A stretch of 64,000 nucleotides of DNA from Saccostrea cucullata (Eukaryota). Positions within the stretch are counted from its first letter, which is position 1; the number at the start of each line of letters is the position of its first letter. Below the pieces are notes generated by a model. That model did no database searches. It was not told where the DNA came from and was given only the letters and a program-made list of their open reading frames with translations. Made by a program: the position numbers and the translations under genes. The stretch lies in contig NW_026926059.1 of the NCBI RefSeq assembly GCF_032062105.1, positions 124,001-188,000 on the forward strand. The letters are read 5' to 3'. Of this stretch, positions 15,665-42,100 are shown piece after piece.

Positions 15665-18600
15665 TTAGGACTGTGTCCTGCACCAATCAAAAGCATTCTG
15701 GAACATCTTAAACCATGGTGACACATCAAACTTCCTCATTTCCTGTGGCATCCATGCACACTGCCATGGCAGAAAGCACCGCTCGGGATGAGGCATGATG
15801 GCAAGATGGCGGCCGTCTTCTGAACAAATGGCGGCGATCCCGTTACGGGATCCATTGGGATTGAGAGGGTAGACCTCGGTGGGCTTCCCCTGATCATCCA
15901 CATACTTCACAGCTATCAGATTGTCTCTACACATATCCTGATAAATCCCCTCCGAACGGAACACCATTCTCCCTGTAAAATGTTATGAAACATTATTTTA
16001 TCTGTAAATGGATGAATTCAAACTGGGACAAATTCAGAGTAAACAGCATTTTCTGGATGATTTTTAAATGGAGCTAATTATATAAATTAAATGCAAGGGT
16101 GAAAATGATTCTGAATGCACAGTAAATGAAGGTAGACTAAGCTGAAATTTTCATTCTGAATTTTTAAAAAATATTTTACAAAGTTGCTTTCAAACTTCTC
16201 TGCAAACACATTTTACCTATGATATTTTATCTTCATTGCTTTTCCAAGCATCTGATGGTAGTTTATTTAATCTAACATCTATGCCTTTATGTTAAATTAT
16301 AAAGTAGAAATATGTCCATAAGACATGAACGCCCCGCCAAGGATATATTAGTAATGCAACATGGAAAATTTGTATGAAATTTGAATGTCTTGATAATATC
16401 TTGATAAGTGATGCAGTTGAATTGCTTACATCAGTATGTATCAGCATATGAAGGTTTACATTAATTTCTTTAAAGTGAGGTCAAGGTCAAAGAAATGCCA
16501 AGGTCAAAAAATATTGACGCAACTGAAAAGCTCTCATCAGTATGTATCAGCATACCGTATGTCGTTTTAATTCCAGTGTTAATATTTCTTGATTTCTCAA
16601 AAAGTAAACAATCGCGATGGTTTTAATTTCACGATGCAAGAAATTAATTTGAATTTTGTATAAGCATTTAATAAACGTTTTTAAAAATATTGTATATTCA
16701 TGGCGGGGCATAAAAAACTTTCATGACCCAAAATATCAAGAAATTTTTCAGAAACACTTGTATCTATAATTGCATGTGTAGAGATAAATGTTGAGAATGT
16801 AATTCTACCTTCCCCGTGGGCGCTCCACATCCCAAACACTGTATCCTCCATCCCTCTAAACATGATGGCCGGACTCTTCATCACCCGTACAGAACTGAAG
16901 CGACACTCAAATCTCTCAGACAAGTTGTGATCCAGAAAAAGGCCCTGTCCAACACCACTGTTACTGTTTTCTGTGTTCAAAAAAAAAAAAAAGAATGCAG
17001 AGTTTATCTAGTAGTGGTGATCAATTTTATTTTGCTTCATTTATTGTAGAAAAGTAAGGAAGAAAAATTTTATTGCCCATGAAGGGGACATAAAATTGTT
17101 CAGATTGTTATTCAAATTTGATGTGGGAACTACAGCAAATTGGAGCATTCCCTTACAATTTAGGCATGACTGCTACAAACAGGACCATGTCTTTACAATT
17201 TGGCACTGTTACAAAGTGGATCATTCCATCTCAATCTTAACACAGGCCCTGCTACAAAGGGACCATCCCCTCACAATTTTAACAGAAGCAGAGAATTGTT
17301 TTACCTTTGAGGTCCTCGTCGGGAGCGACCCAGCCCAGCAGTGCCATCAGCTGACAGCCATTACAGACCCCCAGACTAAACGTGTCAGGTCTCTCCTTAA
17401 ACTTTAACAGCTGTTCTCGCACACTTTGGTTAAACAGGGCAGTAGCAGCCCAACCTGTAAACAAAAAGAGAAATCAAAATATGTACAATTTGCAAATGTT
17501 CGAAAGGTGGTGCAAATTATTTATCATTCATTTTCAATCATCTTGGATTTAAAAACTTTAAAGAATTCGCAGTTCAAGATTTCTATAGTGCCATGAATAA
17601 TGTAATGTAAATCTCAAACTACGTTGTAGAAACAAACCTTTGGCAGATCCACATACATCAGCATAGCTAAAGCCTCCAACAAAAACTAGTCCCCTAAACT
17701 GGTCCAAGTTTATTTGTTCTGAGCAGAGGTCCTCCATGTTAACATCCCACACCTCAAAACCGGCCATGTGGAGTACGGCGGCCATCTCTCGGTCAGAGTT
17801 ACTTCCCTCTTCTCTAAGAACCGCTACTTTTGGCAAGGGTTGACCTGTCAGGAGCAAAATACATGTCTAGTGTGACTCGTGTATGCAAAAAAATTGTCAC
17901 TGCCACCCAACTGTAATGATATAAAGTGGAAAAAAAGAATTCAAACTTTTTTAACATGTATTCAGTTTTAAAATAGACAATTTCTCTAACAGCATGTTTT
18001 CCCACAAAATAAACTTTTTTTTTTTAAACTGCTTTTAGGATTTCATTGTAAAAAGGGCAGCTGTTTTAACATGAAATAGTGCACGGAACAGTGAAGTTAC
18101 TTTCAACAAACATTTGTAGCTTTGATAAAACTTGTATTATACAAAAACTCATGCATTTCATAACATGCCTTGTAAGCAGTGACGGTGAAAAATCAACACA
18201 TACTTGTTGGTCTACCTCTCTGGGAAAAGGATATAATCTCAGATTCAAATGGCACATGATAAGGAGGCTCTAGCCTCTCTTTCAGTCCTGTTTGTTCCTG
18301 GGTTACACATTTGGGATTGGCTTGAAGAAATTCTAACTGAAAACTGGTTTCTTCCCAGATATCTCTTAACACTGTCATTTTCTCTTTTATTACCTCCAGA
18401 CCTCTTATGGATATATTCACCTAAAAAGACAACATTCAGTAAGATTTAAAAGATTACTCAGTTACAGGTGTATACATTTCATTTGATAATCAATGTTATC
18501 GTATGGCAAAATTTGACATTGTGCTTATAAATGGCATGTTAATCTGCTCATGTACAATAAGAAACAATTTTATTTTATCACATTCAAGATACACATACAT

Positions 18601-21600
18601 GTATTTTATATCATACACAGAGGAATAAGCAGAATAAGGATAAAAACAAAAGCAACAAGAGATGTTTGTAAAATACTTATGCCCCCTACCCCAAACTGGA
18701 ATTTTTCCAAGTCCAAGGGGCATAAATCTGTTAAAAAGATCGCAATGGTATTCAAAACAGAACTTGATCTAAATTTTCATCTGATAATTCTGTACATGTA
18801 TACTAAATTTCATTTCAGTATGTGAAACTTCTGCGAAAAAAAATGAACGGAAACTGCAAATAATTGGAATTTTTCTAAGTCCAAGGGTTGTAACTCTGTC
18901 AAAAATGGTGCGATTGTACCCAAAACAAACTTGATCTAAATTTTTATCTGATAAATCTGTAAACCAAATTTCATTTCAGTATATGCAACCTCTGCGAAGA
19001 AAATTAACGGAAACTGCAAATAATTGGAATTTTTCTATGTCCAAGGGGCATAACTCTATCAAAAATGGTGCGATCGTACCCAAAACAAATCTTGACCTAG
19101 ATATTCATCTGATAAATCTGTGTATACCAAATTTCATTTCAGTATGTGCAACAGTTGTGAAGAAAATGAATGGAAACTAAAAGGACCGACAGACCGAAAT
19201 ACCGACCGACAGACAGCAGCAAAGCAATATGCCTTCCCTTCTTCGAAGGGAGGCATAAAAAACTCTCTCCCAATGTATGGCATTATTTCTGATCAGATTA
19301 CACATGTAGGACATGTACATTGCATCATTCTTTAATAACAGTACCAACCAAAGAGTCCTTGCCGCTCTTTGAAGAATGACCAATCAGATAACAGGGTACA
19401 TTCTGTGCGGCATATTCTCCCAGTACAGTTGTACTCTCAATGAATGGCACTTCCAGGATCAACCCAAGTTCTTCTGAGAACAACACATCTATGGCACTAA
19501 ATTCTGAAATACATGTATCAGTATCATTTACAAAAATACTACAATCAAAGGTTTTCATCATTCAACTCTACAGAAGTTTATCAAAATTTGAAATGATTAA
19601 AATATCAGCAACATTAAATGATTTATATCTCTTTTCTCATTGAAGCACCATAAATGAATACCTTCCTGAATGAATTCCAGGTTGACATCTATTCCACAGT
19701 TTCCAGCAAAAGCCATTTCCATCATGGCTGTGATAAGTCCCCCATCACTCACGTCATGTCCAGCAGATATCTTCCTCTCTGAAGACAATTTTTTTTGTAC
19801 ATAGTCTTTGTAAATTCAATTAAAAGCTGTAGATAGCTGGTCAGACAGTGATAAATATTGGGCAGATGTGCACCACTGTCAGGCAAACAAAAGTAAAAAA
19901 AGTACAGTAAAATTTGTCTAATCCGGACTCTGTGTACTCCGGACTTTTGTCCATTCCGTCTATAAATTTTAGTCCCATGCACTTCTTTAACAAATTCATT
20001 AGAAAAAATTCTGTGTAGTCCGGATACTGTCTATTCTGTATTCCAAACGGCCATACTGGTCCCAACTGCTCATAAATAACGGTAATTATTTCCTCTAATC
20101 CGGCCACACCTGAGTTACTTCAAAGCAATTAACACCTTTCGTGGTGGATTTGATAATCTGTGTTTACATAAGCAGTGCCATGAAACGAACTCAGTGAAAC
20201 GCGGCGGTGACACAGCCCAGTTGAAAAAAAAATTACTAGTATATGATTTAATTACAATTAAAAAAAAGATAATTTTGTTTTAACTCGATCCTTTTACCAC
20301 ATTATAACAAAAAAATAAATACGTAAGCGATTTACAAATCAATATATAAATCGGGATCGAAAATCGGACGCATTCAAAATGGCGCCATAACACTGTGGGG
20401 GAAGATGTAATTTTTTACATAAAAATTAAAAGTTCAGTCTAATAATTAGCACATCGTAAATAATTGTGCATTACTGTTTTTACATTGAATGAGCTCTTTG
20501 ACAAGCGAAACATGATTCGCTTGATATATAGTAGGCCTACATGTATATTATGCGTGCCTGTAGATTTTGATTTAGGTTACATTTCACCCGACTTTCACAC
20601 TTCGTGAAAAACAAGAAAATACAGTAAGCATGGTAAGTCATAAGAGACTATTTTATAATTTCTAGACTCCAAAATATTGATTAATTTCATCATTTAATTA
20701 TATTTTACATTATGTATAATAATGAACTTGTAAATAAACAACGAAATTTTCAAAATTAATATTTTCCTGCATTTTTCCTGCACTCCGGATTCTGTCTAAA
20801 CCGGCCAAATTTTATGGAACCAGCGGTAGCCGGTTTGGACAAATTATACTGTACATTCCATTTGCATTTCTTATTCTATGTAAATGACATCCTGATTTCT
20901 TACCTCCAATTAACTTTTGTGTGACATTGAAAGCTTTACAGAAAACATCTGGCTGATCCAGATCAGGACAGAGGTCACCCAGCTGTTTGTAACATTGAGC
21001 AAGGGCGGAGCCACCCATTCGATGGTTCCCACCCCCTAGATCCACTAATAGCAGGCAACCTGTAGCAAAAATGTCTAAATTACACAGTGCTTATATCAGG
21101 TCTGTTTGTAAAACATTCTCTACCAGTCAAGTATGCAAAGAGAGACACTAGTTGTAGTTAAATTTTATGAATGTTACATTAATGTTACATGTCAAAATTT
21201 TACATCAGTATTGTCAAAAAGGGAGTTGGTAGCGAGTTGCGTGCACACAGGATTCGCATTTAAATTAATTATTAATATTCCCTAATTCCTTTTTTTTTAT
21301 TTTTTCATAATCAAATATCCAGGAATGACCTAGATGACTGCATGCAGAACTATGAATTTGATCTAACTGTGAGAACACAAGTGAATTAAACTGGATTAAA
21401 AGAAATAAATGTCCTGTACACAGCTCCTAAGAGCAATGGAAAGGCTGTCTGGGATTATTATTAATGTGAAACACAAGCTGGAAGTATTTAGAATTTTCTA
21501 ACCTTTGTTGTCTGGACACTTGAGATCAGGAGTAACGGTCAGTGTAATATCTGGACAGGCAGCATAGGCAGATATCACAAGTGTACCTACAAAACAAGAG

Positions 21601-24600
21601 TCATTGTAATATCTGGCAGATATCACAAGTGTACCTACAATATTAGAGTCTGTGTAATATCTGGACAAACAGCATAGGCAGATATCACTAGTGTACCTAC
21701 AATACAAGAGTCAGTGTAATATCTGGCAGATATCACAAGGGTAACCTTTGTTGTCTGGACACTTGAGATCAGGAGTAACGGTCAGTGTAATATCTGGACA
21801 AGCAGCATAGGCAGATATCACAAGTGTACCTACAATATTAGAGTCTGTGTAATCTGGACAAACAGCATAGGCAGATATCACTAGTGTACCTACAATACAA
21901 GAAAGATATCTATACAAGCAGCATAGGCAGATATCACAAGGGTACCTACAATACAAGAGAGATATCTATACAAGCAGCATAGGCAGATATCACAAGTGTA
22001 CCTACAATACAAGAGTCAGTATAATATCTGGACACGCAGCATAGGCAGATATCACTAGTGTGCCTACAATATGAGAGATATCTATACAGGCAGCAGAGGC
22101 AGATATCACAAATGTACCTACAATACAAGAGTCAGTGTAATATCTATACAAGCAGCATAGGCAGATACCACTAGTGTACCTACAATACAAGAGTCAGTGT
22201 AATATCTGGACAGGCAGCATAGGCAGATATCACAAGTGTACCTACAATTCAAGAGAGAGATGTCTATATAAGCAACATAGGCTGATATCACTAGTGTACC
22301 TACAATACAAGAGACAGTGTAATATCTGGACAGGCAGCATAGGCAGAGTATCACAAGTGTACCTACAATACAAGAGTCAGTGTAATATCTGGCAGATATC
22401 ACAAGGGTAACCTTTGTTGTCTGGACACTTGAGATCAGGAGTAACGGTCAGTGTAATATCTGGACAAGCAGCATAGGCAGATATCACAAGTGTACCTACA
22501 ATATTAGAGTCTGTGTAATATCTGGACAAACAGCATAGGCAGATATCACTAGTGTACCTACAATACAAGAAAGATATCTATACAAGCAGCATAGGCAGAT
22601 ATCACAAGTGTACCTACAATATTAGAGTCTGTGTAATATCTGGACAAACAGCATAGGCAGATATCACTAGTGTACCTACAATACAAGAAAGATATCTATA
22701 CAAGCAGCATAGGCAGATATCACAAGGGTACCTACAATACAAGAGAGATATCTATACAAGCAGCATAGGCAGATATCACAAGTGTACCTACAATACAAGA
22801 GTCAGTATAATATCTGGACACGCAGCATAGGCAGATATCACTAGTGTGCCTACAATATGAGAGATATCTATACAGGCAGCAGAGGCAGATATCACAAATG
22901 TACCTACAATACAAGAGTCAGTGTAATATCTATACAAGCAGCATAGGCAGATACCACTAGTGTACCTACAATACAAGAGTCAGTGTAATATCTGGACAGG
23001 CAGCATAGGCAGATATCACAAGTGTACCTACAATTCAAGAGAGAGATGTCTATATAAGCAACATAGGCTGATATCACTAGTGTACCTACAATACAAGAGT
23101 CAGTGTAATATCTGGACAGGCAGCATAGGCAGATATCACAAGTGTACCTACAATACAAGAGTCAGTGTAATATCTGGCAGATATCACAAGGGTAACCTTT
23201 GTTGTCTGGACACTTGAGATCAGGAGTAACGGTCAGTGTAATATCTGGACAAGCAGCATAGGCAGATATCACAAGTGTACCTACAATATTAGAGTCTGTG
23301 TAATATCTGGACAAACAGCATAGGCAGATATCACTAGTGTACCTACAATACAAGAAAGATATCTATACAAGCAGCATAGGCAGATATCACAAGTGTACCT
23401 ACAATATTAGAGTCTGTGTAATATCTGGACAAACAGCATAGGCAGATATCACTAGTGTACCTACAATACAAGAAAGATATCTATACAAGCAGCATAGGCA
23501 GATATCACAAGGGTACCTACAATACAAGAGAGATATCTATACAAGCAGCATAGGCAGATATCACAAGTGTACCTACAATACAAGAGTCAGTATAATATCT
23601 GGACACGCAGCATAGGCAGATATCACTAGTGTGCCTACAATATGAGAGATATCTATACAGGCAGCAGAGGCAGATATCACAAATGTACCTACAATACAAG
23701 AGTCAGTGTAATATCTATACAAGCAGCATAGGCAGATACCACTAGTGTACCTACAATACAAGAGTCAGTGTAATATCTGGACAGGCAGCATAGGCAGATA
23801 TCACAAGTGTACCTACAATTCAAGAGAGAGATGTCTATATAAGCAACATAGGCTGATATCACTAGTGTACCTACAATACAAGAGTCAGTGTAATATCTGG
23901 ACAGGCAGCATAGGCAGATATCACAAGTGTACCTACAATACAAGAGTCAGTGTAATATCTGGCAGATATCACAAGGGTAACCTTTGTTGTCTGGACACTT
24001 GAGATCAGGAGTAACGGTCAGTGTAATATCTGGACAAGCAGCATAGGCAGATATCACAAGTGTACCTACAATATTAGAGTCTGTGTAATATCTGGACAAA
24101 CAGCATAGGCAGATATCACTAGTGTACCTACAATACAAGAAAGATATCTATACAAGCAGCATAGGCAGATATCACAAGTGTACCTACAATATTAGAGTCT
24201 GTGTAATATCTGGACAAACAGCATAGGCAGATATCACTAGTGTACCTACAATACAAGAAAGATATCTATACAAGCAGCATAGGCAGATATCACAAGGGTA
24301 CCTACAATACAAGAGAGATATCTATACAAGCAGCATAGGCAGATATCACAAGTGTACCTACAATACAAGAGTCAGTATAATATCTGGACACGCAGCATAG
24401 GCAGATATCACTAGTGTGCCTACAATATGAGAGATATCTATACAGGCAGCAGAGGCAGATATCACAAATGTACCTACAATACAAGAGTCAGTGTAATATC
24501 TATACAAGCAGCATAGGCAGATACCACTAGTGTACCTACAATACAAGAGTCAGTGTAATATCTGGACAGGCAGCATAGGCAGATATCACAAGTGTACCTA

Positions 24601-27600
24601 CAATTCAAGAGAGAGATGTCTATATAAGCAACATAGGCTGATATCACTAGTGTACCTACAATACAAGAGTCAGTGTAATATCTGGACAGGCAGCATAGGC
24701 AGATATCACAAGTGTACCTACAATACAAGAGTCAGTGTAATATCTGGCAGATATCACAAGGGTAACCTTTGTTGTCTGGACACTTGAGATCAGGAGTAAC
24801 GGTCAGTGTAATATCTGGACAAGCAGCATAGGCAGATATCACAAGTGTACCTACAATATTAGAGTCTGTGTAATATCTGGACAAACAGCATAGGCAGATA
24901 TCACTAGTGTACCTACAATACAAGAAAGATATCTATACAAGCAGCATAGGCAGATATCACAAGTGTACCTACAATATTAGAGTCTGTGTAATATCTGGAC
25001 AAACAGCATAGGCAGATATCACTAGTGTACCTACAATACAAGAAAGATATCTATACAAGCAGCATAGGCAGATATCACAAGGGTACCTACAATACAAGAG
25101 AGATATCTATACAAGCAGCATAGGCAGATATCACAAGTGTACCTACAATACAAGAGTCAGTATAATATCTGGACACGCAGCATAGGCAGATATCACTAGT
25201 GTGCCTACAATATGAGAGATATCTATACAGGCAGCAGAGGCAGATATCACAAATGTACCTACAATACAAGAGTCAGTGTAATATCTATACAAGCAGCATA
25301 GGCAGATACCACTAGTGTACCTACAATACAAGAGTCAGTGTAATATCTGGACAGGCAGCATAGGCAGATATCACAAGTGTACCTACAATTCAAGAGAGAG
25401 ATGTCTATATAAGCAACATAGGCTGATATCACTAGTGTACCTACAATACAAGAGTCAGTGTAATATCTGGACAGGCAGCATAGGCAGATATCACAAGTGT
25501 ACCTACAATTCAAGAGTCAGCATAATATCTGAACAAGCAGCATAGGCAGATAACACTAGTGTACCAATAATACAAAAGTTAGAAAGATATCCACACAAGC
25601 AGCAGATGTATGTGTATCTACAATATGAGAGTGTAAAATATGGACAAGAGGCGTTAGCAGATTTCGTGTGTTAACTACAACATAAGAGTTAGTCAGATAT
25701 CCTTACAAACACCATAGGCAGATATCACAAATGTATACTTTCACTCCACAATCAGTGAAAACCTGGACAAGCTGAATAGGTAGATATCACACAAGTACCT
25801 CTGACACAAAAGTAAATGGGAAAGTCTATACATACATTGTAAGCAGATATCTTAAGTGTACACCCTTGAAACAACAAGCAGTGTAATATCTGTGGAAACA
25901 GCACAGAAAGATATCAAAATGTTCTTTCAACACAATATTATAATTTTTAAGTTAACTTGAATTTCTTGACCACTCACAGGTACAGCAAAACTCGTTTAGT
26001 ACGAACACGGATATTGCAAATTCACGGATATAGCAAAGTTATCTTGGATCCCCAGCTATGTAAATTTAATGAATTCCGTATATGGATATAACGACTTACG
26101 GATATAGCGAAGTAATTTTACAGGTCACAGTGACTTCGCTATAACAAAGTTTTACTGTATATATTTTTTAAAAACAACAGGAATAAAACATTTATATGAT
26201 AATTCCATGCTCTCATAACATGACCTCTATATTTTAAACGATTTTGATCATTCATTCTTTCCTTCCTGCAGTACCTGGTGCCTTAACAGTTTGATCTCCC
26301 ACTCTGGCTGCCATGCTCAGTGAATCTTTCCCACCATCCACAGCTATCCCAAGATGCTTCATGATATCACACATGGCTGAGCATGCCTCCAGTAAAGCAG
26401 CACCCTCTCCTGGAAGTTTGGCAGGCCACATCCAGTTTCCACTACATTTAATGTCCTGTATAGTGAGAAAATTTGAACTGTCACATTCCCAACAATAGAA
26501 GGATTATATATGTAATTGCTAAACCTCACTCACATAATCAAGTACATGTACAAGTATTGTTTGATTGCATTAAACATTGTGAAAACTGCTCAATACGTCA
26601 TCCTTGTAGACGAATTTTAGTTCCAAATATTATTTCCCCTATTTCTATCAATTCATGTTTAAAAACCAGGGATTAAAATTTTTTAGTTTTAAATGAACTA
26701 TGTGTATAAACAATTTACCTTGATGCCTGTGACTTTAGCAAACACCAGGTTTGTGAGAGCCTCTGCTACAGACAGGCGAGCTCCACAGGCTGGACTTATC
26801 AGGCCTTTGATTGGCTGTTCTCCTATAGCAGTACAGGAACCAACCTATCACAGTAAAGAATCACATTAAGGATGTATTAGTTATCAGGCCTTTGACTGGC
26901 TGCTCTCCTTTAGCAGTACAGGAACCAACCTATCACAGTAAAGAATCACATTAAAGACTTACCAGTTATCAGGCCTTTGACTGGCTGTTCTCCTATATCA
27001 GTACATGTACAGGAGCCACTCTATCACAGTAAAGAATCACAGTAAAAAAACTAATCAGGAAATTGATGTAACTACCTTGTCAAGGTAACTAAGTGCTGTC
27101 ACACCAACATCTGCCAAAGGTGTATGAAGAGGACCAACACACTGTTGCTGGGCAACCAGACCTGTCACACACCTGTCTACCTACACAAACAAAATATAAT
27201 CCAGAAAATTTGTAATCCTTATATTAGTATCATAAAATTTCCATCACAGTAAAGGCAGAATCCCTACTGAAAAAGTACATACCGGAATCTTTAATAATAA
27301 ATTTATCATAAAGTAATTTTTCTTCTTTCCACTTTTATCTATCCATTAAGTGCCCTGACCTTGTTGGTGAGATATCTCTTACTGGCCACAGAGGGTAACC
27401 TCAGGACTCGCTCTACACTGTCTCTGACACGGAGATTCTCAGGTAAGGATAATGTACTGGGGCTAGGTGTGATCCTTTGAAGCTTGAAAACCTACAGGAT
27501 TGAGTTGTCGAATATTACATTCACACAAAGAAAAACAGTTGTTAACTCATTACACATTATCTTCATTCCAGAAATTAAATCCGAAACAAAATTGAAATAT

Positions 27601-30600
27601 AACTTCAATCAAATAGCAAATAAACTTTCTAATTCATTTACACCTCATATAAATGTGCCCCCTTTTGTCAAACCTTTCTGGGCATGGATCCCAGGACATG
27701 TTCTAGATCCAGATCCACAGGGAAGTTTATCGTCTTTTTCCTCTTCTTTGAAGGTGTGGATATGTCTTCTGTTGTTTCCTTCTTAAAACCCTCCAACTTA
27801 ATCTGAAAAAAATATTCCACCACACTACTACATACAAGATAATTCTTATTAAAACCATAGGCCCCTGAGTCATGATGCTCACCTAAGTCACAATTCTCTT
27901 CCAAGTAATTTAACGAAAGGTAGAAACTTACTGACACAGGAGGCAAAACAAAATAGATTAAGTAAAGTGCATATTGTTTTCTAATTACTACTAACAATGG
28001 AAAGTGAGCAGGTATAATTCAACTTGTTCAAAACATGCATAAGATTTTCAAAATTAGCTTAATTAAAACTTTTTTGCTTAAGGTGTTTGGCTTCTGACAT
28101 TAAAAATAATTGAAAATTATTTTTTTCTTTTTTAATTGTAAGAATAAACATAATAAATTATTTTAAGCCAGGAAAATTCATATGAATATGATTTAATTTT
28201 CAAGCTATAGGTGTTCCTGACAAAGGGAGGTAATTCTCGCATTTTAGTAAAGAAAAAGACCAAATTTGTGTTCAACATATTTAATATTTATTTTAAACAA
28301 TGAAATGTTTTCAAATCATTCCAACCTTTTGCTATCTTTTAAAAGTAGTCATAGGGAATATAAATATTGATAAAATAAGAATGATAATTGATAGAAGATA
28401 AAATTTAATTCTTATCAAAAAGGACACACCCTCATACTAAAAAATGCCTTTTTTTCCTTTCACAGGGCTTATAAAATGAGCTTGGAAAATAAATTAGAAA
28501 TAATTAAAAAGTATTTTTTTTTCTATACATTTGTTACTAAGATAAAGTGCTTAAAAATGGTGTAAAAAATTGTATATCAATATGAGTTACTTTTAAAGAT
28601 ATTTTAACATGAATTTCCTCTGACCCATTTTTCTCAAATTTTGACCAGAGGAAATTCGGATTGATTCTGTTTGCCTCTTCCATGATTTTGGGGGATTTTC
28701 TATTTGCCTAAATGAATAAGTGTATTGAAACTCAGTCTTTTTCTTTAAAAGAAAAGGGACATTTCATTTTTTGGGGGGACTATTTAAGACTTAGGGGAAA
28801 GAGGGGATGGTGGGGGGGGGGGGTGGTTAATATCTATTTTCATGCCCACTCACATTACCTGAGGATAATTCTTTAATAGTTTGACTAATCATGGCTTTGC
28901 CTGTTCTGAGTTGAGAGAATTTTACAGACATTTCAAATATTTTTCTATGCATACTTTGCTCCACTTGTGGCCCATCCTTCCCCCAAGAAGTATTGAATAT
29001 AGGGTATGCAATGAAGCTAAATTTCACGTAAATGTCATCTTTTCTTCAGTGGTTCTTCAGAAGATTTTTGAATAATGCCACCAAAATTCTTAATTACCCC
29101 CCACTTCAAAAGGGCGAGACACTTCCTATGAACAAAGTTAAATCCCCTTAATTGAAATTGGGCCAGTTGGTCTTTCAAAGAAATAAAATATATCAAACTT
29201 TACACACCCCTGACAAAAGACCGATTGCCAGACAATCTTTGATCAGAAAAGCTCACTCGGGCTTCCGTGTCAGGTGAGCTAAAAACCACCACCTAGTAAT
29301 CATTTCACTATAAACGTTTCACAGCAAATTTCCAGTTATTGAAAATGAAGGGAATAAAAAAAAAGACTAAATGAATGTTTTGAACTACTAGTTGTACCAA
29401 TAACAGCTAGTTTAATTTGCGTCATGCAATGTAAATTTCTCTTGATTTCATTGTATCAAACAAAATGTTCTTTATTCAAGATGAAAAATGATCAACTATT
29501 TAACTTTATTGAAGTTTATTCAGATCCATGTTTCTTGTGATAGAGATCTATCAAATTGTTACCTTTACAAGTAACATACAACATTTTTATATACTGTAAA
29601 CATTAGATTATTTGTGCCTTTGACAGAAAACTGCTGTTGCTATATCAAGAACATCGCTAACTTTATGACCTGCGTATTTATAAGTACACAACAAAAATTT
29701 TGCTAGAAATCAAACCTAGCCCGATTGTTGAAAATAGATTACTGCCAAGTATAGGTCATACACAATATAAAACATTTACAGAATGTCCATTCATATTCAT
29801 TTGTGCATGTTTCAATTTAATATGCACATAGTCTTCTTCAATAAATATCAAAGAACACCTTTTAATTTTTCAGGTATGCTCAAAATATGGGTAATGAAAA
29901 TAAATTGTTGTCAATTTCTAAATAAGGATTTATTTTGAATGGAAAGAAAATGATTTGTTCAACTACAAACTACCTATAACAATAAACATTGAAAAAAACA
30001 ATAGTACATGGCATAATTATACCCCTGCTCTGAAGCACAGGGTTTATACTGTTTTTCTTTCTACACTTGTGTGTCTTTCTGTCAGTAACAAATTTTTGTC
30101 CAATTTTTCTCAGCAATCACTCATCATGCTCAATTGCTCATCACAGATGTTTTAAGTTTTAGCACACTCTTTCTTTAGACATGCCGTATGTTGGAATTGG
30201 TTTTAGACGAATCTGATGTCAACTTCCTAATTATCTGTGCATCTGTCTGTACCACAAATAGTAAATTTTTGTCACAGTTTTCTCCACAACTACTCATCAC
30301 AGTTGGAATTGGTTTTAGACGAATCTGATGTCAACTTCCTGTGTATCTGTGCATCTGTCTGTACCACAAATAGTAAATTTTTGTCACAGTTTTCTCCACA
30401 ACTACTCATCACAGTTGGAATTGGTTTTAGACGAATCTGATGTCAACTTCCTGTTTATCTGTGCATCTGTCTGTACCACAAATAATAAATTTTTGTCACA
30501 GTTTTCTCCACAACTACTCATCACAGATGCTTGAAATTTTTTAGACATGTAATATGGTTGGATTCATTTTTGTACGAATCCATTGTCAATTAACTTTGTT

Positions 30601-33074
30601 TATTCCTGTCTGTCCATATTCACATCAGATTGAGGGTATTACTAGTGAGCACTGGCTCACAGAAATCAAACAAACAAACAAACAAACAACCAAACAAACA
30701 ATAATATAGTTACATACAAAGAACATCATACAACTGCGTTACTGCTCAGATCTGAGAAAATCTGCAACAGAATCAATGATTTTTCTAGATTTTGTCACAC
30801 GCACACTGTTATCTGTTATCTCTGTCAGCACATCCTGTACTCCCTCCCTACCATTTCTGCGATAAGCCAGTTGTAAGTGTGATAAGGAGAGTCCACTGCT
30901 GGCAATCTTATTTGCCATTCCATTCGAAATCACCTTTTGGTCCAATAAAGGCTTTAGTGTGCTCATTAGACTTTTTGTTGTGTTCTTGTGATGGAATATG
31001 GCAAAGGCAGAGTTTGAAGTGAAAGATGCAGCAAGTTTGACTTCAGGGGAAGGTCCTGTATGGTCCAACAATCTCTTCAAGGCTAAGACATCCTGTAATG
31101 AGTCATGCGCACTGTATTTGTCTTGTAGAATTTCTTCGAAGAGGTGTAACTGTGAGTATGATGAAAGGTTTGGATGCGAAATTTTGAAAAGAGGTAAGGT
31201 ATCAATGAAACCAATGACTGCAGATGAGAATGCCTCCAAAATGTTTAATTTACTCAAAATGTTGAACAGCACAGGAAGGTCAAACACTTTGGAGTTGTGT
31301 CCAACTAGAACAGCATCTGACTCCGATTTCTTTATGAAGCCGATAAACTGGATCAGTGCATCCTTAATGCTGACTGTCTCAACTTCCTCATCATTGTGGT
31401 ACATTTTATTGTTGACTACTTTTATTCCAGTAATTTCTGTAGCTTTTGAGGACATTGGTTTTTCTGGAATGATGTATTTGTTGAAAACCTCATCATTTCT
31501 AACTGCAGACAACTGCACAATATGAGAATCCCTTGCTAAAAATAAAAAAACAAATAATTTAATTTTGATTGTAACGCATCATTTGATTGGATAAAAAATT
31601 AATCTAAATTGTATAATCTGGTTTGCTTACGTCACAATGACTTACATCAAATTGTATCAATCCGCTTGACGTTACGTTTAAAATATGAACTATTTGAAGG
31701 CATTATAAAGAGAAAATCTGTCTTGTTTTATATTCTTGATGATTGAAAATTAAATCATAAGGAGTGAATTAAATGGCAACCCAAATTATACTGCTACAAC
31801 CTGGGTTGGAGCAGTTTACGCTTTTTTATAAACCGCTTTGAGGTTTAGAAAGCATAAACTGCCCCAACCCAGGTAATACAGTATAATTTGGGTTGCTATT
31901 TAATTCATTCCGTAAGTAAATTCAAGTTTTTAAAATTAAAAGCATTAAAAAAAAATACATATAAAAATTGATATATTGTAAATGTATTATATTTAGCATG
32001 TATGATATTTGGAAGAAATTGACTTTTGAATAAGTAAGCGTAGATTTGATTTAGTGCATTTCTTCATTTTCTTCTTTATGTGTATATGTGCAAGACATTT
32101 AGCGTTGTACTTGATTTAGCGGTCCGCTATTAGAATACACAGCCAAATGTAATCCGTTTACAGTATGCATGATTTAAAAAATTTTGAAACATTATAATAA
32201 TAGTAACCCTCTTCCCCAAGACTTAACTCCTTCAAAGATGCTTGAATTCTTTCAGAATATGCAATTTCTTTTTAATCAGTGTCCTCAGAAGGAAGGGTAA
32301 AGTTTTGAAAGATATAAAACATGCTCAACTACTTGTACCAATACTGGAATTATGCAAGAGTCTCCATTTCTATTTGTTTTCTATGATAACTCTAGTATTA
32401 TTATTTCAAAATGCATACAAAAAAATACCGGAAGAGGGCCATAACCATCAGCATTGACTTAACATTTAAATCTAGGTTCTTACCGAGTCCAGTAGTTTCC
32501 AAATCAAAATAGATCTCTTCAGCATTTAAGAGCTGACTTGAAGGGAGATGATCATACTTTGGAATTGTTTTTGGAGCTGGAATTTCAACGATGTCAGAGG
32601 CCTGCTGGAGATCACATCCTGTTAAATAACTGATGCCTTCCCTTGTTTCTTTTGTAGAAATACTTTGAATTCTGTAAAGAAGATGTATACTGTAAAACAA
32701 ATGATTCTAAACTGAGGTCTTACTAAAGGCCTAGCAAAATAAACAATCACCTAATGTACAGCTAATGAATTAGGAGTTGTAAATAAATGAAAATCCTGAG
32801 CACATCGGCAAGGAAAGAGCACAAAGTAGACCAGAATAGAAAAGTTATGGTACATGTAATTTACTGAAGGGGGGGGGGCTTATATTTTATCACTACTTAA
32901 GAATGCCTCCATATCAATACAGCATATAACTTTTTTAACATTTTGTTCGTATATATTACTTAGTAATAATTTGAATTTGATTCCCCACCGTTTCCCTCCC
33001 TACCACAAAGGATCAGGATTGAAACAAATTTAAATCTTCAATTTTCATTTCCATATGACTAAACATAGCTTCTC

Positions 33075-33107
<33 letters not shown>

Positions 33108-36100
33108 ATTTTTTCCCTTTATTTTCCTATGTAAAACTTTGATCCACCATGTATGATTTGAAAAAAAAATTAATTCTACTTTACCTGAGGATGCTTCCAT
33201 ATTAATATCACCAATCATAGCTTTGCTATTCTTGAGAATTTTTTTAAAAATATATTGTACTGTAAAATGCAATTGTGGCCCCGCCCTATCCCTGGGAGTC
33301 ATGATTTAAACAATCTAGAATCTACACTACCTGAGGATGACTTCATATCAATATCACTTATCATGGCTTTGCAGTCCTTGAGAAGAAGATTTTTAAAGAT
33401 TTCAAATTCTCTATATATTCCTGTGTAAAACTTTGATTGGCTATGTGGTCCCACCCTATCCCCCAGGGTCAAGATTTGAACAAACTTGAATCTACACTAC
33501 CTGAAGATGATTCCATATGAGTTTCATCTTACCTGGCCCAGTGGATACTAACTTTGTAGCAAGTTTGGTTGAAATTGGCCTAGTTGTTCTTGAGAGAAAG
33601 ATGAAAATGTGAAAAGTTAATGACAACAGATACATTTTTATCAGTAAAGCTCACTTGAGCTTTCCGCTAAGGTGAGCTAAAAAAACTGGGTATGTAGGTA
33701 GGTAAAATTTTTATTTTAAGATTGCAGCAAAGCAATATGCCCTCCCTTCTTTGAAAAAAATATTTATCAAACCATGCTATTTATACAAGCATACCGTAAA
33801 TCTTTGGTGATTCAGAAAACAAATCTTAGTAACATGCAAGATATTAATTCCCACTTAAATTCATACTTATCATCATTCACTTGTTCTTGGTTTATTTTCA
33901 TTTTTGAGGTTGTCAAAAGGTTTTTTACACCTGACAAATGACAATCAAAGTATACTAGTACGTACTTCCTGGCTTTCAATTCTCTCCTTCTCCTTTTAAA
34001 TTTTTGTGTCACTGAAATGGCCTTCTGTCGCTTTCTTTGTAAATCCCTCAGAATGCACTGTCGTCGAGTATAGTAGCCAGGAGAGAGGCCCAATTTCTTG
34101 TTAACCTTTAATAAGGATAAAAGAATCTATTATGTACAACTACAATGTACATACATATACAATACAATTTGCTTTTGATTAAAATTTGCAGAATTTTCAA
34201 ATGTAAGAGATAACTTGAGTGGTTCAACTCATATATGACACAATAAGCATGAAAAAATAAAAATTTACAAACCTTTACAAGATATTTGTGTCCAACATTT
34301 TTCTGGGCTACACATGCAGCAACTCTATATCTGAGGCTTGAAGAAGAGCTGTAATGATGGGTCTTTGGGGCTTTTGCAGACACCATTCTGTGAAAACTCT
34401 CATTCGACTGTGTGCTTCCTAAGCATGAAAGACGATCAGAATGACTTGCATATGAACTGAAGACTTCTTTCAGATCATCCTGAAGGAACCTATCTTTCAG
34501 GGGTTTTCCATGTGGAAGTGACTTGTACTTCAGGTTAGGGTTGTTAATGAAGTTGCACCACCTTGAGGAGCAGTGTTGGTGATCTCCAAATATGTGTAAT
34601 GGAATTGATGAAAGGTCTTTGATTTGAGAAGCATTTCCTTTTCCCTGTGCTATGGAGTAACTGAAGCATTTCTGAATGTACTTTATCACAGACAAAGTTA
34701 GAGTTGAATGTTTTTTCTTTAAGGTAAACAAAGAGTTTGTAAACAGTTTCTTTAGATGATTTTTATCAGACAACTTCTTAATATCAGCATTGACATTAGC
34801 TTTCAGTCTTGCAATAGTGGTAGAGTCCTCATCTCCAATGATTCCATCAATGGTTATTCCTTTACTTTTCTGTAGATCTTGGACCATCTCAATAACCATA
34901 TCTGCCTCCATGGCCTTTGAACTACCCTCCCAATTCTTTGAGCACTCATGGGCTGCTGGATTCTTGTTGGTTGATTCAGCTACACTGCATACTCTGCAAT
35001 TCTTAGACCTCAGAGAGTATGACAATACTTTGTCGGAGAGAGGACCAACCATGGAACAATGACCTGAAAAATTACAAATTAGAAAAACTGTATAACTTAT
35101 AGATGTATTCGTTGTTTTTATTAAAGCATTTTTCATGCATTTCTTAACTTAATAAAATGTATGTCTTAATACTTTGGCAAGGAAAATCATACTCGATCAC
35201 TGATGTTACATGTATGCATTTGGTAATAACCTTTAACCCCTTTAGTCAGCAATGAACCTGTGCGTCCAGTGCACTATAGCATAATTGGGTCAAATATTTA
35301 TTTTTCACGAGGGGTGCTGTATAAATAATGGAAATCGTTCAACTTTAAAAAAGTAAACAGTTGCTTTAAAACGTGTTTGCAGAATGCAATAGGGACCAAA
35401 TTCCTACTTCTTTGAAGTTAAGTGTTCTAAGTATTGACAATGCTTTGGTAAATAATGTTTCTAATAAGTGTCGTTAAAAATTGGTTGCGTGCCATAGAGC
35501 GATTAGCGAATACGCTAACTGTGTAAAATCACCTAATATTTTAATATTTTGATTTGACTCATTATGAGTCTTAATGATTTTTCTCCTATATATATTTCCG
35601 TGTAAACATTATATCTTTTTTTGGCTCCATTATCCCACCTTGGGTCCATATTTCGAACAAAACTGAATATGCTTTACCTGCATGAGCAACATAACTATTC
35701 ATGGCTGTTCTTTAGAAGAATATTTTACAATTTATATGGACAGTTGAACTTTGAGATATGTGCCTTTCTAAATTTATTGCATCTGTTTGCATACATATTT
35801 AATGGAATCAAGTCCTAAGCAAACTTAATGCATAGTTTATGTTGGGCACAAGCGGAAAGTAATCACTCTAATCATCAATATTTTTTTTTATTTTCCTAAA
35901 ATTTGTCTACTGTAGAAGCATAAATTTTCGTGGGCATAAAATTTTTTTGTTCTGACATCAAAAATAATCTCGTCGTTGTTTTAAAACTAACCCTAGGTCT
36001 AAAAAAAAATATGTTTGTTTCCTGTAACCCGACCGACCCATTCAAATTACCCCCCGGGTGAATTTTTTTATTGACAAATGGCAAAACTTCGTTTGATCAA

Positions 36101-39100
36101 TCAGCTGATTCCATTTATTAAAAAAAGAAAATTAGCTTGTAGCTTAACTTGAGACATAAAATATGTCAACTTAGTTTACATCTAAGTTTGATTAGTTATA
36201 AAGAGTAATCATTATTATAACAACAATTTCCCCCTACAACTTTCTGAAGATCGTTTTCTGCCGCTAGGTAGCCATTTTGGATGCCATGTTGGGTGTCCAC
36301 TGTAGATATGACACCTGGTATATTGAATCCAGGGATGTTTGACAATTCATAAGAAAAAAAAGAATCCAGACCTACCGACCCTTAATTTTTTTTTAATGTT
36401 ACAGGAAACAAACATATCTTTTTTAAAGCCCTATTCAATATATAGTCATATAAAATTTCGTGTGGGATTTAATTTTGTTGAATTTCCCCCCCCCCCCCCC
36501 CCCCCCCCGAATATTTGTGCTTTTACAGTATTTTTACCTGATAAACTATCATATGTCTTTCCGCTACCCCGTTTTTGCCATCCAGCATCTACAGCAACAA
36601 CTAGTCCATTTTCGTTCATCTCTCTGAAAAATAGATAAATAACAGACATCAGTTATTAATTAACTGTGAACCTGTCTTCTTTAGAACACCCCCTAATGTG
36701 CATAACATTCTGCATATTTATCAATACAAATTATACTGTACATGATTAAACCTTATATTTATCAGTATATCAGATTCTATTAACTTGATCACTATCAATT
36801 ATTATTAGGTATTCCCTATGATAATCATTTGGGGATCAAAACTAAAACACAAGGCTCTTGGGGCTTGGGCCACAATACTCTAGGAAGTCACTGTCTCTGT
36901 CCAATCTAATTAAAACTTTTTAATTTTTCCTTTTTTAATTCATTCTAGGAATGAATTTAATAGCTACCCAAGTTATACTGTATATCCTGGGTTGTGCCAG
37001 TTTTGGCTTTCTATACAGCGAGGCTTTCATTTCAAAGCAGGTTACACTAATATAACTTGGATAACTATGAAGTTAATTCCTTATAATTTAATTCTCCATC
37101 AATAAGTAAAGAAAATATAAACTTAATAAGACAATTTTTCCTTCAAAAATGCATGCAATTAGTACATACATGTATCTTATATGTAAAATTAAATGGGTTG
37201 TTATGTTTGTGACATACATGTTAGTAATTGTGACTTAACCAACACAGGTTATACCATATGACCACTACACATGTATGCTGGACACCCATTGATCTGATCA
37301 GAAAAGCTCTATTGCGCCTTTGGCTCATTTGAGCTAAATAGTGAGATTTAAACTGAATTTATATTGTTTACACACTCATTCATCATTTCCAGTTCCTTCT
37401 GCAAAGCATCAGACATAGACTCTGCAGCAATGTCTTCAACAGCTCTGCCTATCTCTTTCTGTCTTTTGTCCAGCATGGCATGGCTTACAGGTGGTATATT
37501 CAGCTCAGAAAGGAGACTGTTGACTTGCGTTGCACCAATACCAACATGTACAATTGCTGTAAATACAAATTCATAAATGTAAAAAAGAAATCAATCTAAT
37601 CACTTTAAACAAGAAGCTTGTGAAATACAACACTCACCTTAGTCTCATTTATTTTCTCTCTTTATTACCAGAAATTAAAAATAGAACCCATACTTTTAAC
37701 AAACTAAACCCCTAGGGGTAATGGCAACAAAACTGGAATTGATCTACAAAGAAGCTCTTGGATTCTAGAGGTTTTGTAGGGTAAAAATGAGGTCTACCGA
37801 TTAGACATCAGAAACATTTCCTTGACAAAACTATGTTTTATGCTAACTTTGACAATTTCAGGAGGGGTTCGTGCCGGGTGTGCCCCCCATTAAGTCTGCC
37901 ACTGATTATATCAATTTATAGATACATATACCTATTTACTGGCTATGAGGACAAAAGCAAGTTTATTGTCCCCCATGACAGCAACAATTTCTCAAGGTGC
38001 GTCCAAGTTGCTGTTGAGGGGGGGGGGGGGGGGACAACAAACTTGCTTATATTGGAATAGACAGGTAAAACTCAATCAGGCTCTTGTGACTTGACAATAA
38101 TAAATATACATGTAACTGATGTATGGGATGTGTAGGTTAAACTTCTTACCTGCTGAAAACTTTGTATTTACATCCCACACTCTTCCATGTTTTTTCCCTG
38201 TTTTTACATGGTTAATATGATTACACTTTGTATTGCTGCAACAGACCTGAAATGTTTATGTAAAATCAATGAATTCCTAATTACAGGTCACTGTTCTAAA
38301 TTCATTCACCATTAATGAAATCAAATGCTTGGGAAAAAAGAATTTAAATATGCATTACTTCAAATTATTTCAAAGAAAAAAATGTAACATCTTTCAAAAC
38401 TAAAAATATGGATATATGGAATACTGCCTGTTTTATATGGAGTAAAATTCAAGGAAAAACCTTTCAAGGTTGTTTTTATACAAACTGTGCAAAAATTGGT
38501 GAGTTCATACCTTTAACAAAGAAGCTAAACCATATGTCAACACAGAAATAGTGTGTGAAAGTTGTAATGGTAAGCCACATTTACAACATCCCCGCAAGCC
38601 CTCAGCTAACACTCCAAGTTCTACTACTCTCCTCCCCTCCTTCCAATCCTTAGATGTAGTCACTTCTTCCCCATCAACCACCTCCTCTCTTTCCAGTATA
38701 TTCAAATTTGGCAATTCTATGAATAATTAATAAAAATTATCACCATTACACATTCTTTATTATCTACTGTAACACATCCTGACTAGTTGACAGTTTAGAT
38801 ACACTATGACTTACTAAATTCCAAGAACCAGTTTTCAAAATAATTCATTGTGCCGATATACAACATATTTTTCCATATACCGATATTTCTCAAGATATTC
38901 TGAAATCAATCTTAAATATGATCTACTAAATTCTTTTACTCGACATTTGCTTGGAACCTGGTCATTCACATGTAAACAGACGGTGTATGAGGTGCAGCGA
39001 AGAGTTGCATAGCATTTGCAAGATCTTTCAACATTTTAAAGTTGATTTCTTACTCCAGATTGTAAGGTTAAGTAGTCTGTATTAATAATAATAAGTTAAA

Positions 39101-42100
39101 ATCTGGATCAACAACTACACCGCCATTTTGATTATGAATGTAAAAGAAGCTATATGGTTGAACAATTTTTTCCTGTAATGCATTATCATGTCAGATTATA
39201 TACCTTTCTATTTTCAAAACAATTAGGCCTAGACCGCTTACATTTTGTTTGTGACTTAGTAAGATCATATGATCCAATTAAAGAAAAATCATGTAAATCT
39301 CAAATTCAAATGAGCAAATATTCATTGAGTTTAGAACAGACTTTAGAGAAAATTTGTCCTGTCGTTCCCGCTTAACAATTAGTGTTGGGCCCATTGGCAA
39401 GCTGATCGATGTCAATTAAAAAAATTTAGGTCAATTTCGGAATTGATTTCATAATATCTTAATAAGTATAAAGAATTACGGAATGAAATTTGAAGGAATG
39501 AAGATTGTTTATATATGGATAGATATGGATAAACAGTAAATTTGTAAAGCATTCAATTTAAAAGAATTTTATTGGGGAAAGTAGGTACCCTATGAAAAGA
39601 GTTCCATACCTTTATTTTTTTTAACACCTCAATTTTTTTTCTAAGTGATCTAAAGGCCTGTGGGTCAAATGAGTATATCTTTCATCACGTGCAGTGCATT
39701 AAAATAAAATACAGTAATTATCTTTGATTAGTATTGTCATGTAAGGTAAGACATCAGCAAATGTAATTTTTTTTTTTGTAACAGCTAGGCTTAGTATATA
39801 TATATTTTATTGAAATCCACATATGACATCATGTATAGTTAAGTTTATTATCATCAAATATGATTCAAATTTCCATGTTGCATTTTGATTACAATAGGCC
39901 ACGTGGTTTTCAATAAAATACCCCCCCCCCAAAAAAAAAAAATTATATTTTAAAAACTTTGTTGTCAATCAGATGAAATTGTTTTTATCATTGAAATATA
40001 TCGTTGAAAATTCAATTATATACTTGATAAAAACAAGTTTTCAATGTCTTAGTTATGTCATTCGTCTGTCATGTTGTTTTTCAATGAAATATTGAGAAAA
40101 ATTCAATATCTTCTCTTTTGGTGCACATCTTTAACTATTATAAATTTTTTTTAAATAGCTACACGAAGTCATAGTTCAAAAAGTCTTTAGATTGGACCTG
40201 GTATATAAAATGAACATCAACAAATTCATGTACCTCCCTTTAATATTTCTAATAGACCTATGTGTAATCATGGTAATTTAGATGCAGATATGAAAACGAG
40301 TCTTTTAGATTACGTATTTTACATGTACAAACCGTGATCGTGATCAACGCTGACAGGGGTTGCACTGGCGGAGTAATTGTGGTCTGTAAGGATAGCTCCC
40401 CTAATCCATCGAGTCAATTGCCCTGCAGATACTTTATCATATCTCTCCTTCTGCTTTTTCGAGACGAACCCATGGCGTCTGTACTTTGGTTTCACCATCT
40501 CAACCAAAGTTACCGCGCAGACCTTGACTTCTCGTCTGCTTTTTGTTTACATTATCGTAATCCGGTTCACATCCGCGAAATGTAAAATGCTTAGTATATG
40601 TTTGTTTTCTGGCATAAAAAATCGTTATTATGTTACTTTCTATGGATGATGATAATAATTATTTGTAGAAACTATTAATTCTCTGCCGTATTGAATTCTT
40701 TATTATAACGACATTCAGACCAATATCCGGCAGTTCGAGTTGCGCGGTGAATTCAATTTCGTCAGAAGCGAAACACCTTAAATTAATTAAAATTTTTGCT
40801 TCCCTCTTGATCTGTCTTACCCGTCCATCCCCGGTGATAGTCCCCACAAAGTTGACAGGACACCTCTCTCTGTCTGCTATCTTCTGTACCAGGCCCTGGT
40901 CCCCGGGGCTGATCAGGAGGGCGTTACTCTCCTGGTACTCGGCCCCCCACAGCTCTAGGACACTGAGGGTCGGGTCGCCCAGCTGAAACTTGGAGGCCTG
41001 AATGAGAGCACCTGCTGGTTCAGCTATCTCCTTCAGGACATTACCTGTAAATTAAACTTATCATTAACACGACTATGACATCTTAACAACCCAAAGAAAA
41101 TGATAAAGAACTTCATTAAATATAGCTGAATCTTCAATCTTTTTGGTTAAATGAACAATGAAAAATTTTTCTTCATTTCTGCTGTTGGCTACTTGTTGGC
41201 TTAAACCAATGCATTTTTGCAAAGTGAATAAAATTTTGAAAGTGAATCACTTTCAGTTAGACCCTTCCTTTGTTATATATTTATGTGACCTCTCTTTTTA
41301 TAAAATATTAATGTAATTTAAGACTCAATCTCACACTAGATCTCACCGTTTCCCCCTGCCCCCTGGTCGTGGACACTAGCTATGGGGTTCCTCTCCCTCC
41401 TCTCTATACACCCCCTGATGACACGGTTCAGTTTCTGTTCCATCTCTGGATCCCCTCGCTGGACAGCTCCGAAGTCGAGTTCCTCCTTATTGTCCCCCTG
41501 GACCTGGACAGAGGAGGCAGCCCCTCCCCCCACACCGATTCTGTAGACGGGGCCACCTACTTTGGTCACCAACATCCCTACAAAATCATACTCATTCAGA
41601 GTTGTACCATACGTCCACTACAGTGATGATGAATGCATGTACTTCTTTAATGTCAATATATAGTAAAACATTCTATTTTTATCCCAATTTGACATTCATT
41701 TCCCCAGAAGGTACACACTGAACTTTTTTTTCACAGATTCTTCACCTGGTTGAGGTACATCCTTTTTAACATGGATGTCTTCCATCTGTCCAATCCCCCC
41801 GCTGAACATGATGGGTTTGATATACTCCCTCCTCTCTCCCCCTCCGTCCGTCATACCAAAGGACCGAGCGAATCCTGCCAGTACTGGTTCTCCAAACTTG
41901 TTCCCATAGTCTGAGGCTCCGTTACTGGCCTCTATGGCTATATTTAGAGGTGATGCAAAGTTACCTGGGTAAACATAAGATGGGTCCTCCCAGGGTTGGA
42001 TGTAGCCTGAAAATAGTTTGGCTACTAGTGAAAATCTAAGCAAAGTTTTTATAAGAACTTTTTTATCTCTTAAATGGAGTTTTTAAAAGATTCTCTTATC

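What the first reader, a model, noticed from the sequence alone, without database searches (positions are those of the whole stretch)
21503..25900. Satellite born from a PFAS coding exon, with five extra in-frame exon copies and dozens of decoy acceptors
Seen: the monomer is the 3' splice site plus the first ~50 nt of the 84-nt exon [28 protein letters not shown]. Complete copies lie at 21746-21829, 22412-22495, 23197-23280, 23982-24065 and 24767-24850 (785-bp period for the last four). Each has an AG acceptor and a weaker GTTACC donor, versus GTTAGA for the terminal copy. Divergence rises toward 25900. Inference: because 84 nt preserves frame, any copy could be substituted or added in an essential purine enzyme. 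This is a natural test of exon definition and a possible snapshot of tandem exon birth.
Basis: partly seen in the sequence, partly recalled or inferred. Interest (0 to 1): 0.7.

Follow-up and report, generated by a model that had tools for sequence, protein, structure and literature searches.

The report
PFAS "mirage" satellite carrying whole-exon copies
An intron of a purine-synthesis gene, likely from an oyster, is filled by about 70 tandem copies of the start of the next exon, five of them the whole exon with splice signals at both ends; this repeat type is known from lancelets and humans, and the cell likely still splices only the last copy, though no RNA from this species was available to test that.

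Summary
PFAS intron 15 carries a 4.3-kb array: 66 monomers (13 intron nt + 49 exon nt) and five whole copies of the 84-nt, phase 1-1 exon 16, inside a 785-bp higher-order repeat. Raw DNA reads matching the window's letters contain the internal-copy junction (4 reads), so at least one extra copy is real; the number five is unverified. Two related taxa have monomer sequence here but single-copy depth on the exon's 3' half: the array is old, the whole-exon copies recent. RNA of relatives (4 runs) joins exon 15 to one exon 16; no RNA of this species was found. This is a 'mirage' (exon-boundary minisatellite), described in amphioxus and paralleled by human F7 and CBS. The scan noted such arrays before, in this genome and others; PFAS itself has two more boundary duplications. 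The twist is whole in-frame copies whose splice sites score within the gene's own range. They encode an identical peptide, so substitution is silent; only extra inclusion would matter. Interest modest.

The parts
21503..21586 (-). PFAS exon 16 (window numbering), 84 nt, phase 1-1; the terminal copy, donor AAG|GTTAGA (top-scoring of 23 donors)
   Evidence: spliced to exons 15 and 17 in relatives' RNA
21587..21634 (-). last monomer, 48 nt; supplies the working acceptor; its own upstream acceptor would add 16 codons in frame
21746..21829 (-). whole exon copy 1, donor GTTACC
   Evidence: this junction type in 4 raw reads
22412..22495 (-). whole exon copy 2
23197..23280 (-). whole exon copy 3
23982..24065 (-). 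whole exon copy 4
24767..24850 (-). whole exon copy 5
22349..25509 (.). 785-bp higher-order repeat, four periods with no mismatch (each full unit: 1 whole exon + 12 monomers)
21830..22495 (.). 666-bp variant unit (lacks a 118-bp monomer pair; one substitution, two small indels)
25565..25925 (-). old, diverged monomers at the 5' end of the array; the same end point appears in a relative's contig
25981..26159 (.). small element with terminal inverted repeats in the same intron, unrelated to the array
26275..26455 (-). PFAS exon 15; weak donor CAG|GTACTG
20904..21059 (-). PFAS exon 17
26796..27046 (-). second acceptor mirage in the same gene: 85-bp unit, about 3 copies, acceptor plus first 49 nt of exon 14; both decoys lead to stops
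15665..49844 (-). PFAS gene, 24 exons found in the window (start exon not placed)

Best explanation
This is a 'mirage' minisatellite built from the acceptor and first 49 nt of PFAS exon 16, in which one recent join likely captured the whole exon and a 785-bp block then multiplied it, and splicing likely still uses only the last copy. Inferred order: (1) an old duplication across the intron 15/exon 16 border seeded the 62-bp monomer before three related taxa split; (2) in this lineage a join at AGGT(T)A microhomology linked the exon end to a monomer start, giving a whole copy with the chimeric donor GTTACC; (3) unequal exchange amplified the block. The real exon would win by exon definition, because it alone has the strong +5G donor; its acceptor is not special. 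Stray use of most decoys would put a stop in frame within about 20 codons and would be cleared by nonsense-mediated decay. No new protein function is predicted.
For: Shown: anatomy, identical units and one shared chimeric junction. Raw DNA reads with the window's letters hold six monomer or copy junction types, including the whole-copy junction in 4 reads from 3 starts. Relatives: organism A's contig runs from the acceptor into monomer-type sequence; organism C has monomer contigs and the same 5' array end; both show single-copy contig depth on the exon's 3' half (13.2 vs 13.4; 5.7 vs 6-8). The internal copies carry the window's letters at exon nt 50 and 53, where all six relatives' runs mostly show other letters. 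RNA of relatives: 9 reads join exon 15 to exon 16 (X23), 10 and 7 reads join exon 16 to 17, depth 0 on the monomer in both raw RNA runs, no go-back joint listed, and one 586-nt contig runs exons 15-16-17-18 with one exon 16. Terminal donor 10.0 bits vs internal 6.8; 6 upstream AGs outscore the real acceptor and 14 nearly equal it. 6 of 8 donors with a pyrimidine at +3 have +5G vs 4 of 15 others (p 0.039), so GTTACC is in a rare class, 2 of 23. 43 of 71 units put the next TAG in frame as a stop. Precedent: mirages do not disturb splicing (PMC3087553, PMC3902484); the duplicated CBS junction uses the distal site (PMC2630376).
Against: No RNA from the window's species was found; the RNA laid comes from relatives that appear to lack whole copies, at depth about 13, so it cannot test the copies and cannot see rare events. 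On the rough matrix the internal sites are not dead: 9 of 23 real donors and 6 of 23 real acceptors score lower, and the exonic sequence is identical. Copy number is open: read depth gives 3.1, 5.2 or 7.8 exon copies depending on the baseline, and six copies are rejected (P 0.009) under the highest baseline. Contig depth is a poor copy-number measure, and each relative is one sample.
Confidence: 0.7

Rival explanations
1. Internal copies are real cassette exons and are included in a minority of transcripts, giving PFAS with one or more extra 28-residue repeats, at a level set by array length.
For: Both splice sites are canonical and score inside this gene's own range; exonic sequence is identical to the used exon; double inclusion keeps the frame with no stop.
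Against: GTTACC lacks the +5G that usually accompanies +3T here; internal acceptor 3.4 vs 6.5 bits; the repeat duplicates a segment conserved between animal and bacterial PFAS/PurL chains, so purifying selection is expected (inference).
Confidence: 0.15
2. The array is removed stepwise by recursive splicing: each unit starts AG|GT, so joining exon 15 to any unit rebuilds a donor that could be reused, erasing wrong choices until the copy with the strong donor is reached.
For: The rebuilt donor scores 5.4 bits, above the native exon-15 donor (3.7), with the same 6 of 9 matches to the U1 consensus; donor competition governs recursive-exon skipping in Drosophila (PMC8605326, passages read).
Against: 10 of 24 PFAS exons start with GT, so the layout is a by-product of an ordinary acceptor; the site is far from a consensus donor; the intron is only 4.7 kb; no intermediate was observed or testable; the matrix has 21 training sites.
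Confidence: 0.08
3. The assembly over-expanded the identical 785-bp units; the real allele has only one or two internal copies.
For: Zero differences over 3.2 kb; whole-copy junction in 4 reads, about the same as the single-copy junction next to it (5 reads); P 0.004 for five copies at the highest baseline.
Against: At the two lower baselines five copies fit (P 0.11, 0.42); the run differs from the window at 19569 in 5 of 5 reads and may be another animal with a shorter allele; recent block expansion also gives identical units. This rival changes the number, not the kind, and can hold together with the best explanation.
Confidence: 0.3

Closest known systems
Amphioxus 'mirage' minisatellites (Adh3, globins BflGb6/BflGb9, troponin C, PGBD5); PMC3087553 and PMC3902484, passages read; the Adh3 paper was not held
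   Same: Tandem copies of intron end plus exon start, upstream of the real exon; splice signals kept; homogenised interior with a diverged edge; normal splicing where tested.
   Different: About 70 units versus 2-7 in the passages read; a higher-order repeat; whole-exon copies with both splice sites; persistence across three taxa; a mollusc (likely).
Human CBS 844ins68 (PMC2630376, passages read)
   Same: Duplicated intron/exon junction in a metabolic enzyme; the distal site is used; the duplicate is proposed to feed variants into the exon by gene conversion.
   Different: One 68-bp duplicate, no array, no whole-exon copy.
Human F7 intron-7 37-bp VNTR (PMC1557585, abstract read)
   Same: Boundary-spanning minisatellite with identical, potentially functional pseudo-sites that stay silent.
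   Different: Donor side, chosen by 5'-to-3' scanning; here acceptor side, where the last site is used.
Tandem exon duplication / mutually exclusive exons (PMC9013439, abstract and section 6 read; oyster AOX PMC5589949, search listing only)
   Same: Whole-exon copies in tandem, frame-preserving.
   Different: Copies here are protein-identical, lineage-restricted, embedded in a satellite, with a chimeric donor; no inclusion shown; no long complementary pair in the intron.
Recursive-splicing exons / ratchet points (PMC8605326, passages read)
   Same: AG|GT at the unit start and a competing downstream donor.
   Different: Weak non-consensus donor, short intron, no conservation or intermediates shown.

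Membership tests
Mirage minisatellite | Tandem unit spans an intron/exon boundary of the host gene | tested here: met
   13 intron nt + 49 exon nt
Mirage minisatellite | Array abuts the authentic exon and is locus-specific | tested here: met
   (one locus plus a 295-bp stray piece; the search scores few candidates, so a lower bound)
Mirage minisatellite | Units keep splice signals | tested here: met
   60 TTGTAG|G junctions
Mirage minisatellite | Regular splicing is not disturbed | tested here: inconclusive
   met in 4 RNA runs of relatives; no RNA of this species
Mirage minisatellite | Length instability between alleles | tested here: inconclusive
   structure differs between taxa; within-species copy number unresolved
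Tandem duplicated alternative (mutually exclusive) exons | Whole exon duplicated with both splice sites, same phase | tested here: met
Tandem duplicated alternative (mutually exclusive) exons | More than one copy found in mRNA | not testable with these tools
   no RNA run of this species listed
Tandem duplicated alternative (mutually exclusive) exons | Copies differ in protein and are conserved across species | tested here: not met
   identical peptide; single-copy depth in two relatives
Recursive-splicing exon | Acceptor directly followed by GT that rebuilds a donor | tested here: met
   but true of 10 of 24 exons
Recursive-splicing exon | Splicing intermediates or lariats at the site | not testable with these tools
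   no nascent RNA of this species
Intron gain by AGGT tandem duplication (PMC3265369, PMC4974935, search listings only) | The duplication itself creates the intron | tested here: inconclusive
   349 nt of non-array sequence lie at the intron's 5' end and relatives share the junction, which fits an older intron; intron position in distant animals not checked

The most novel reading that the evidence does not exclude
The whole-exon copies are seen by the spliceosome: they are either included, so a satellite allele sets how many 28-residue repeats an essential enzyme carries, or skipped by re-splicing from the rebuilt exon-15 donor, making the array a self-clearing recursive-splicing ladder born from a coding exon.
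Probability: 0.2. Interest if true: 0.65.

Novelty: new variant of a known kind. Interest (0 to 1): 0.32.

Why it matters
As it stands it is a clean natural construct: six protein-identical exons that differ only in donor +4 to +6 context, acceptor tract and position, among 55 further acceptors. One RT-PCR in carriers would say whether donor strength alone picks the exon. It also shows a mirage reaching the whole-exon stage that the amphioxus model (PMC3087553, Fig. 7 legend) only proposed for partial units. It does not show a new protein or a new class of repeat.

Tried and rejected
Dispersed satellite inserted beside the exon: rejected; the unit encodes conserved PFAS sequence and own-genome searches found one locus plus one stray piece. 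Pure assembly artefact: rejected for the monomers and at least one whole copy; not for the number. Smooth divergence gradient: rejected. Special strength of the real acceptor: not supported; organism A has a different monomer type next to its exon. RNA-structure switch: longest exact inverted match inside intron 15 is 11 nt, within the small TIR element; flanking introns not tested. GCC/GCT as a stand-alone marker: rejected; A on the + strand in 10 of 13 reads of X22, 1 of 12 of X23, and in contigs of X1 and X8. RNA of the same species: none among 23 runs listed was shown to be; 7 of 23 were laid, and the four RNA runs carried relatives' letters. Literature: searches listed no paper on this locus or on whole-exon higher-order mirages (listings only; subscription journals are not covered). 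No supplements were read; those of PMC3087553 may show further mirage layouts. Scan look-ups by sequence and by 'full exon copies' words returned nothing.

Full report
Setting. The window is bases 124001-188000 of a contig in a 1.17-Gb eukaryote assembly. Earlier scan notes on this genome call it an oyster; I did not test that. On the minus strand, 24 exons between 49844 and 15665 join into one ORF of 1,339 codons with canonical GT-AG introns. Pfam hits on 8 of 10 exon pieces and a PDB match of the exon-16 peptide to a PFAS chain (E 1.4e-7; bacterial chains align weakly at E 1.9) identify it as PFAS. Exon 16 (21503-21586) is 84 nt, phase 1-1.

Anatomy. Intron 15 is 4,688 nt. From 25925 to 21587 it is an array; one search lists 71 units from 25862 down: 66 monomers of 48-64 nt and five whole exon copies. 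The basic monomer is exon nt 1-49 plus the last 13 intron nt. Three 785-bp units are identical and the exact match at lag 785 covers 22349-25509; a 666-bp variant and a 243-bp piece follow. Every whole copy ends in the same junction, exon end + GTTA + a short monomer, so the donor GTTACC is a chimera of the true donor and a monomer start; a single join at AGGT microhomology followed by block amplification explains all five (inference). Divergence is confined to the five most 5' units.

Is it real? Run X21 (raw DNA, 6% read) shows the window's letters where relatives differ (for example 0 of 12 and 0 of 11 other letters at 21534 and 21537) and holds go-back joints of 46, 53, 54, 62, 103 and 133 nt; the 133-nt joint is the whole-copy junction, in 4 reads from 3 starts. 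It may be the assembly's own sample or another animal (it differs at 19569 in 5 of 5 reads); either way the junction exists in unassembled reads. Depth on the exon's 3' half rejects a single copy at all three baselines tried (P at most 7e-4) but gives 3.1, 5.2 or 7.8 copies depending on baseline, and rejects six at the highest. So 'at least one internal copy' is shown and 'five' is not.

Age. In organism A a 645-nt contig covers exon 16 at single-copy depth and continues past the acceptor into monomer-type sequence; in organism C a monomer contig has about three times the local depth, another ends at the same 5' boundary as the window's array, and the exon's 3' half is at single-copy depth. 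The whole copies carry the window's letters at exon nt 50 and 53, unlike the relatives. Hence an old monomer array and recent whole-exon copies (inference; one sample per relative, contig depth is crude). At exon nt 8 the monomers hold both the window's letter (40 of 66) and organism A's (26 of 66), and at nt 29 both GCC and GCT; this fits exchange between array and exon, as proposed for CBS, but ancestral polymorphism fits too.

Splicing. All RNA laid is from relatives. In two raw runs, 9 reads join exon 15 to 16 and 10 + 7 join 16 to 17, depth on the monomer is 0 and no go-back joint is listed (tables were cut and need 3 reads per row). Two contig runs agree, one with a single contig over exons 15-18. 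So an array of decoy acceptors is bypassed in favour of the last one in relatives. For the whole copies there is no RNA. A matrix from this gene's own sites ranks the terminal donor first of 23 (10.0 bits) and the internal one at 6.8, above 9 real donors; the internal acceptor (3.4) is above 6 real acceptors; the real acceptor (6.5) is outscored by 6 upstream AGs. The matrix ignores dependence: +3 pyrimidine goes with +5G in 6 of 8 donors here versus 4 of 15 (p 0.039), which puts GTTACC in a rare class. The best reading is exon definition by the strong terminal donor, with the internal copies weak but not provably dead. Read-through from any unit meets a stop within 3-81 codons, 43 of 71 at the next TAG; the last, 48-nt monomer is in frame with the real exon and would add 16 codons. 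Use of an internal copy in place of the terminal one changes no residue.

Rivals. Minor inclusion (0.15) and recursive removal (0.08) are not excluded. The second rests on the rebuilt donor scoring 5.4 bits against 3.7 for the native exon-15 donor and on donor competition in Drosophila, but 10 of 24 exons here begin with GT. Over-expansion in the assembly (0.3) affects only the count.

What is known. Boundary-spanning minisatellites are 'mirages' in amphioxus, with splice signals kept, concerted evolution inside the cluster and normal mRNA. Human F7 (abstract) and CBS 844ins68 are the donor-side and single-duplicate parallels. I reached the mirage paper through my own search; scan notes returned at the same time and later list two more cases in this genome and eight in other genomes (unchecked). 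PFAS itself has an 85-bp acceptor triplication at exon 14 and duplicated exon-4 donor pieces. One search gave only an outline and was not used. What I did not find described in eight literature searches or four scan look-ups is a mirage with a higher-order unit holding the entire in-frame exon.

Verdict. Real, correctly described, a known kind of repeat with an unusual whole-exon variant; function most likely none. Interest 0.32; 0.65 if the copies prove to be spliced (probability about 0.2).

Noticed in passing
window 26796-27046 (-): Second acceptor mirage: about three 85-bp copies of the exon-14 acceptor plus its first 49 nt; the most 5' copy ends in a consensus CTG|GTAAGT donor; both decoys lead to stops.
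   Followed up: partly
window 47958-47940 and 45962-45920 (-): The exon-4 donor region is copied 31 nt downstream and again about 2 kb downstream, on the far side of a block of 30-, 44- and 54-bp minisatellites (46044-47805).
   Followed up: partly
L007 1076-1370 (G000:C18547:489575-489869): A 295-bp piece of the array's old 5' end (window 25631-25925) sits on another contig at 96.6% identity, directly beside a 156-bp two-copy repeat; possibly carried by a mobile element.
   Followed up: partly
window 19903-20853: 951-bp TA-flanked element with terminal inverted repeats in PFAS intron 17; high copy in reads, and absent at this site in organism A's contig.
   Followed up: partly
window 25981-26159: 179-bp element with terminal inverted repeats between exon 15 and the array.
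   Followed up: no
window about 28800-40600 (-), PFAS intron 10 (13 kb): Multi-ORF insert: a 346-codon frame (34108-35148) resembling a Mutator/Phantom-type transposase and a 279-codon frame (30739-31578) resembling a DEDD exonuclease; names recalled, not tested.
   Followed up: no
window 539-1540 (-): 333-codon frame resembling a tyrosine-recombinase (Crypton-like) transposon protein; name recalled, not tested.
   Followed up: no
window 62164-63444 (+): 426-codon frame resembling a KLF5-type transcription factor exon; name recalled, not tested.
   Followed up: no
PFAS donors, whole gene: Only 10 of 23 donors have +5G, and +5G is tied to a pyrimidine at +3.
   Followed up: partly
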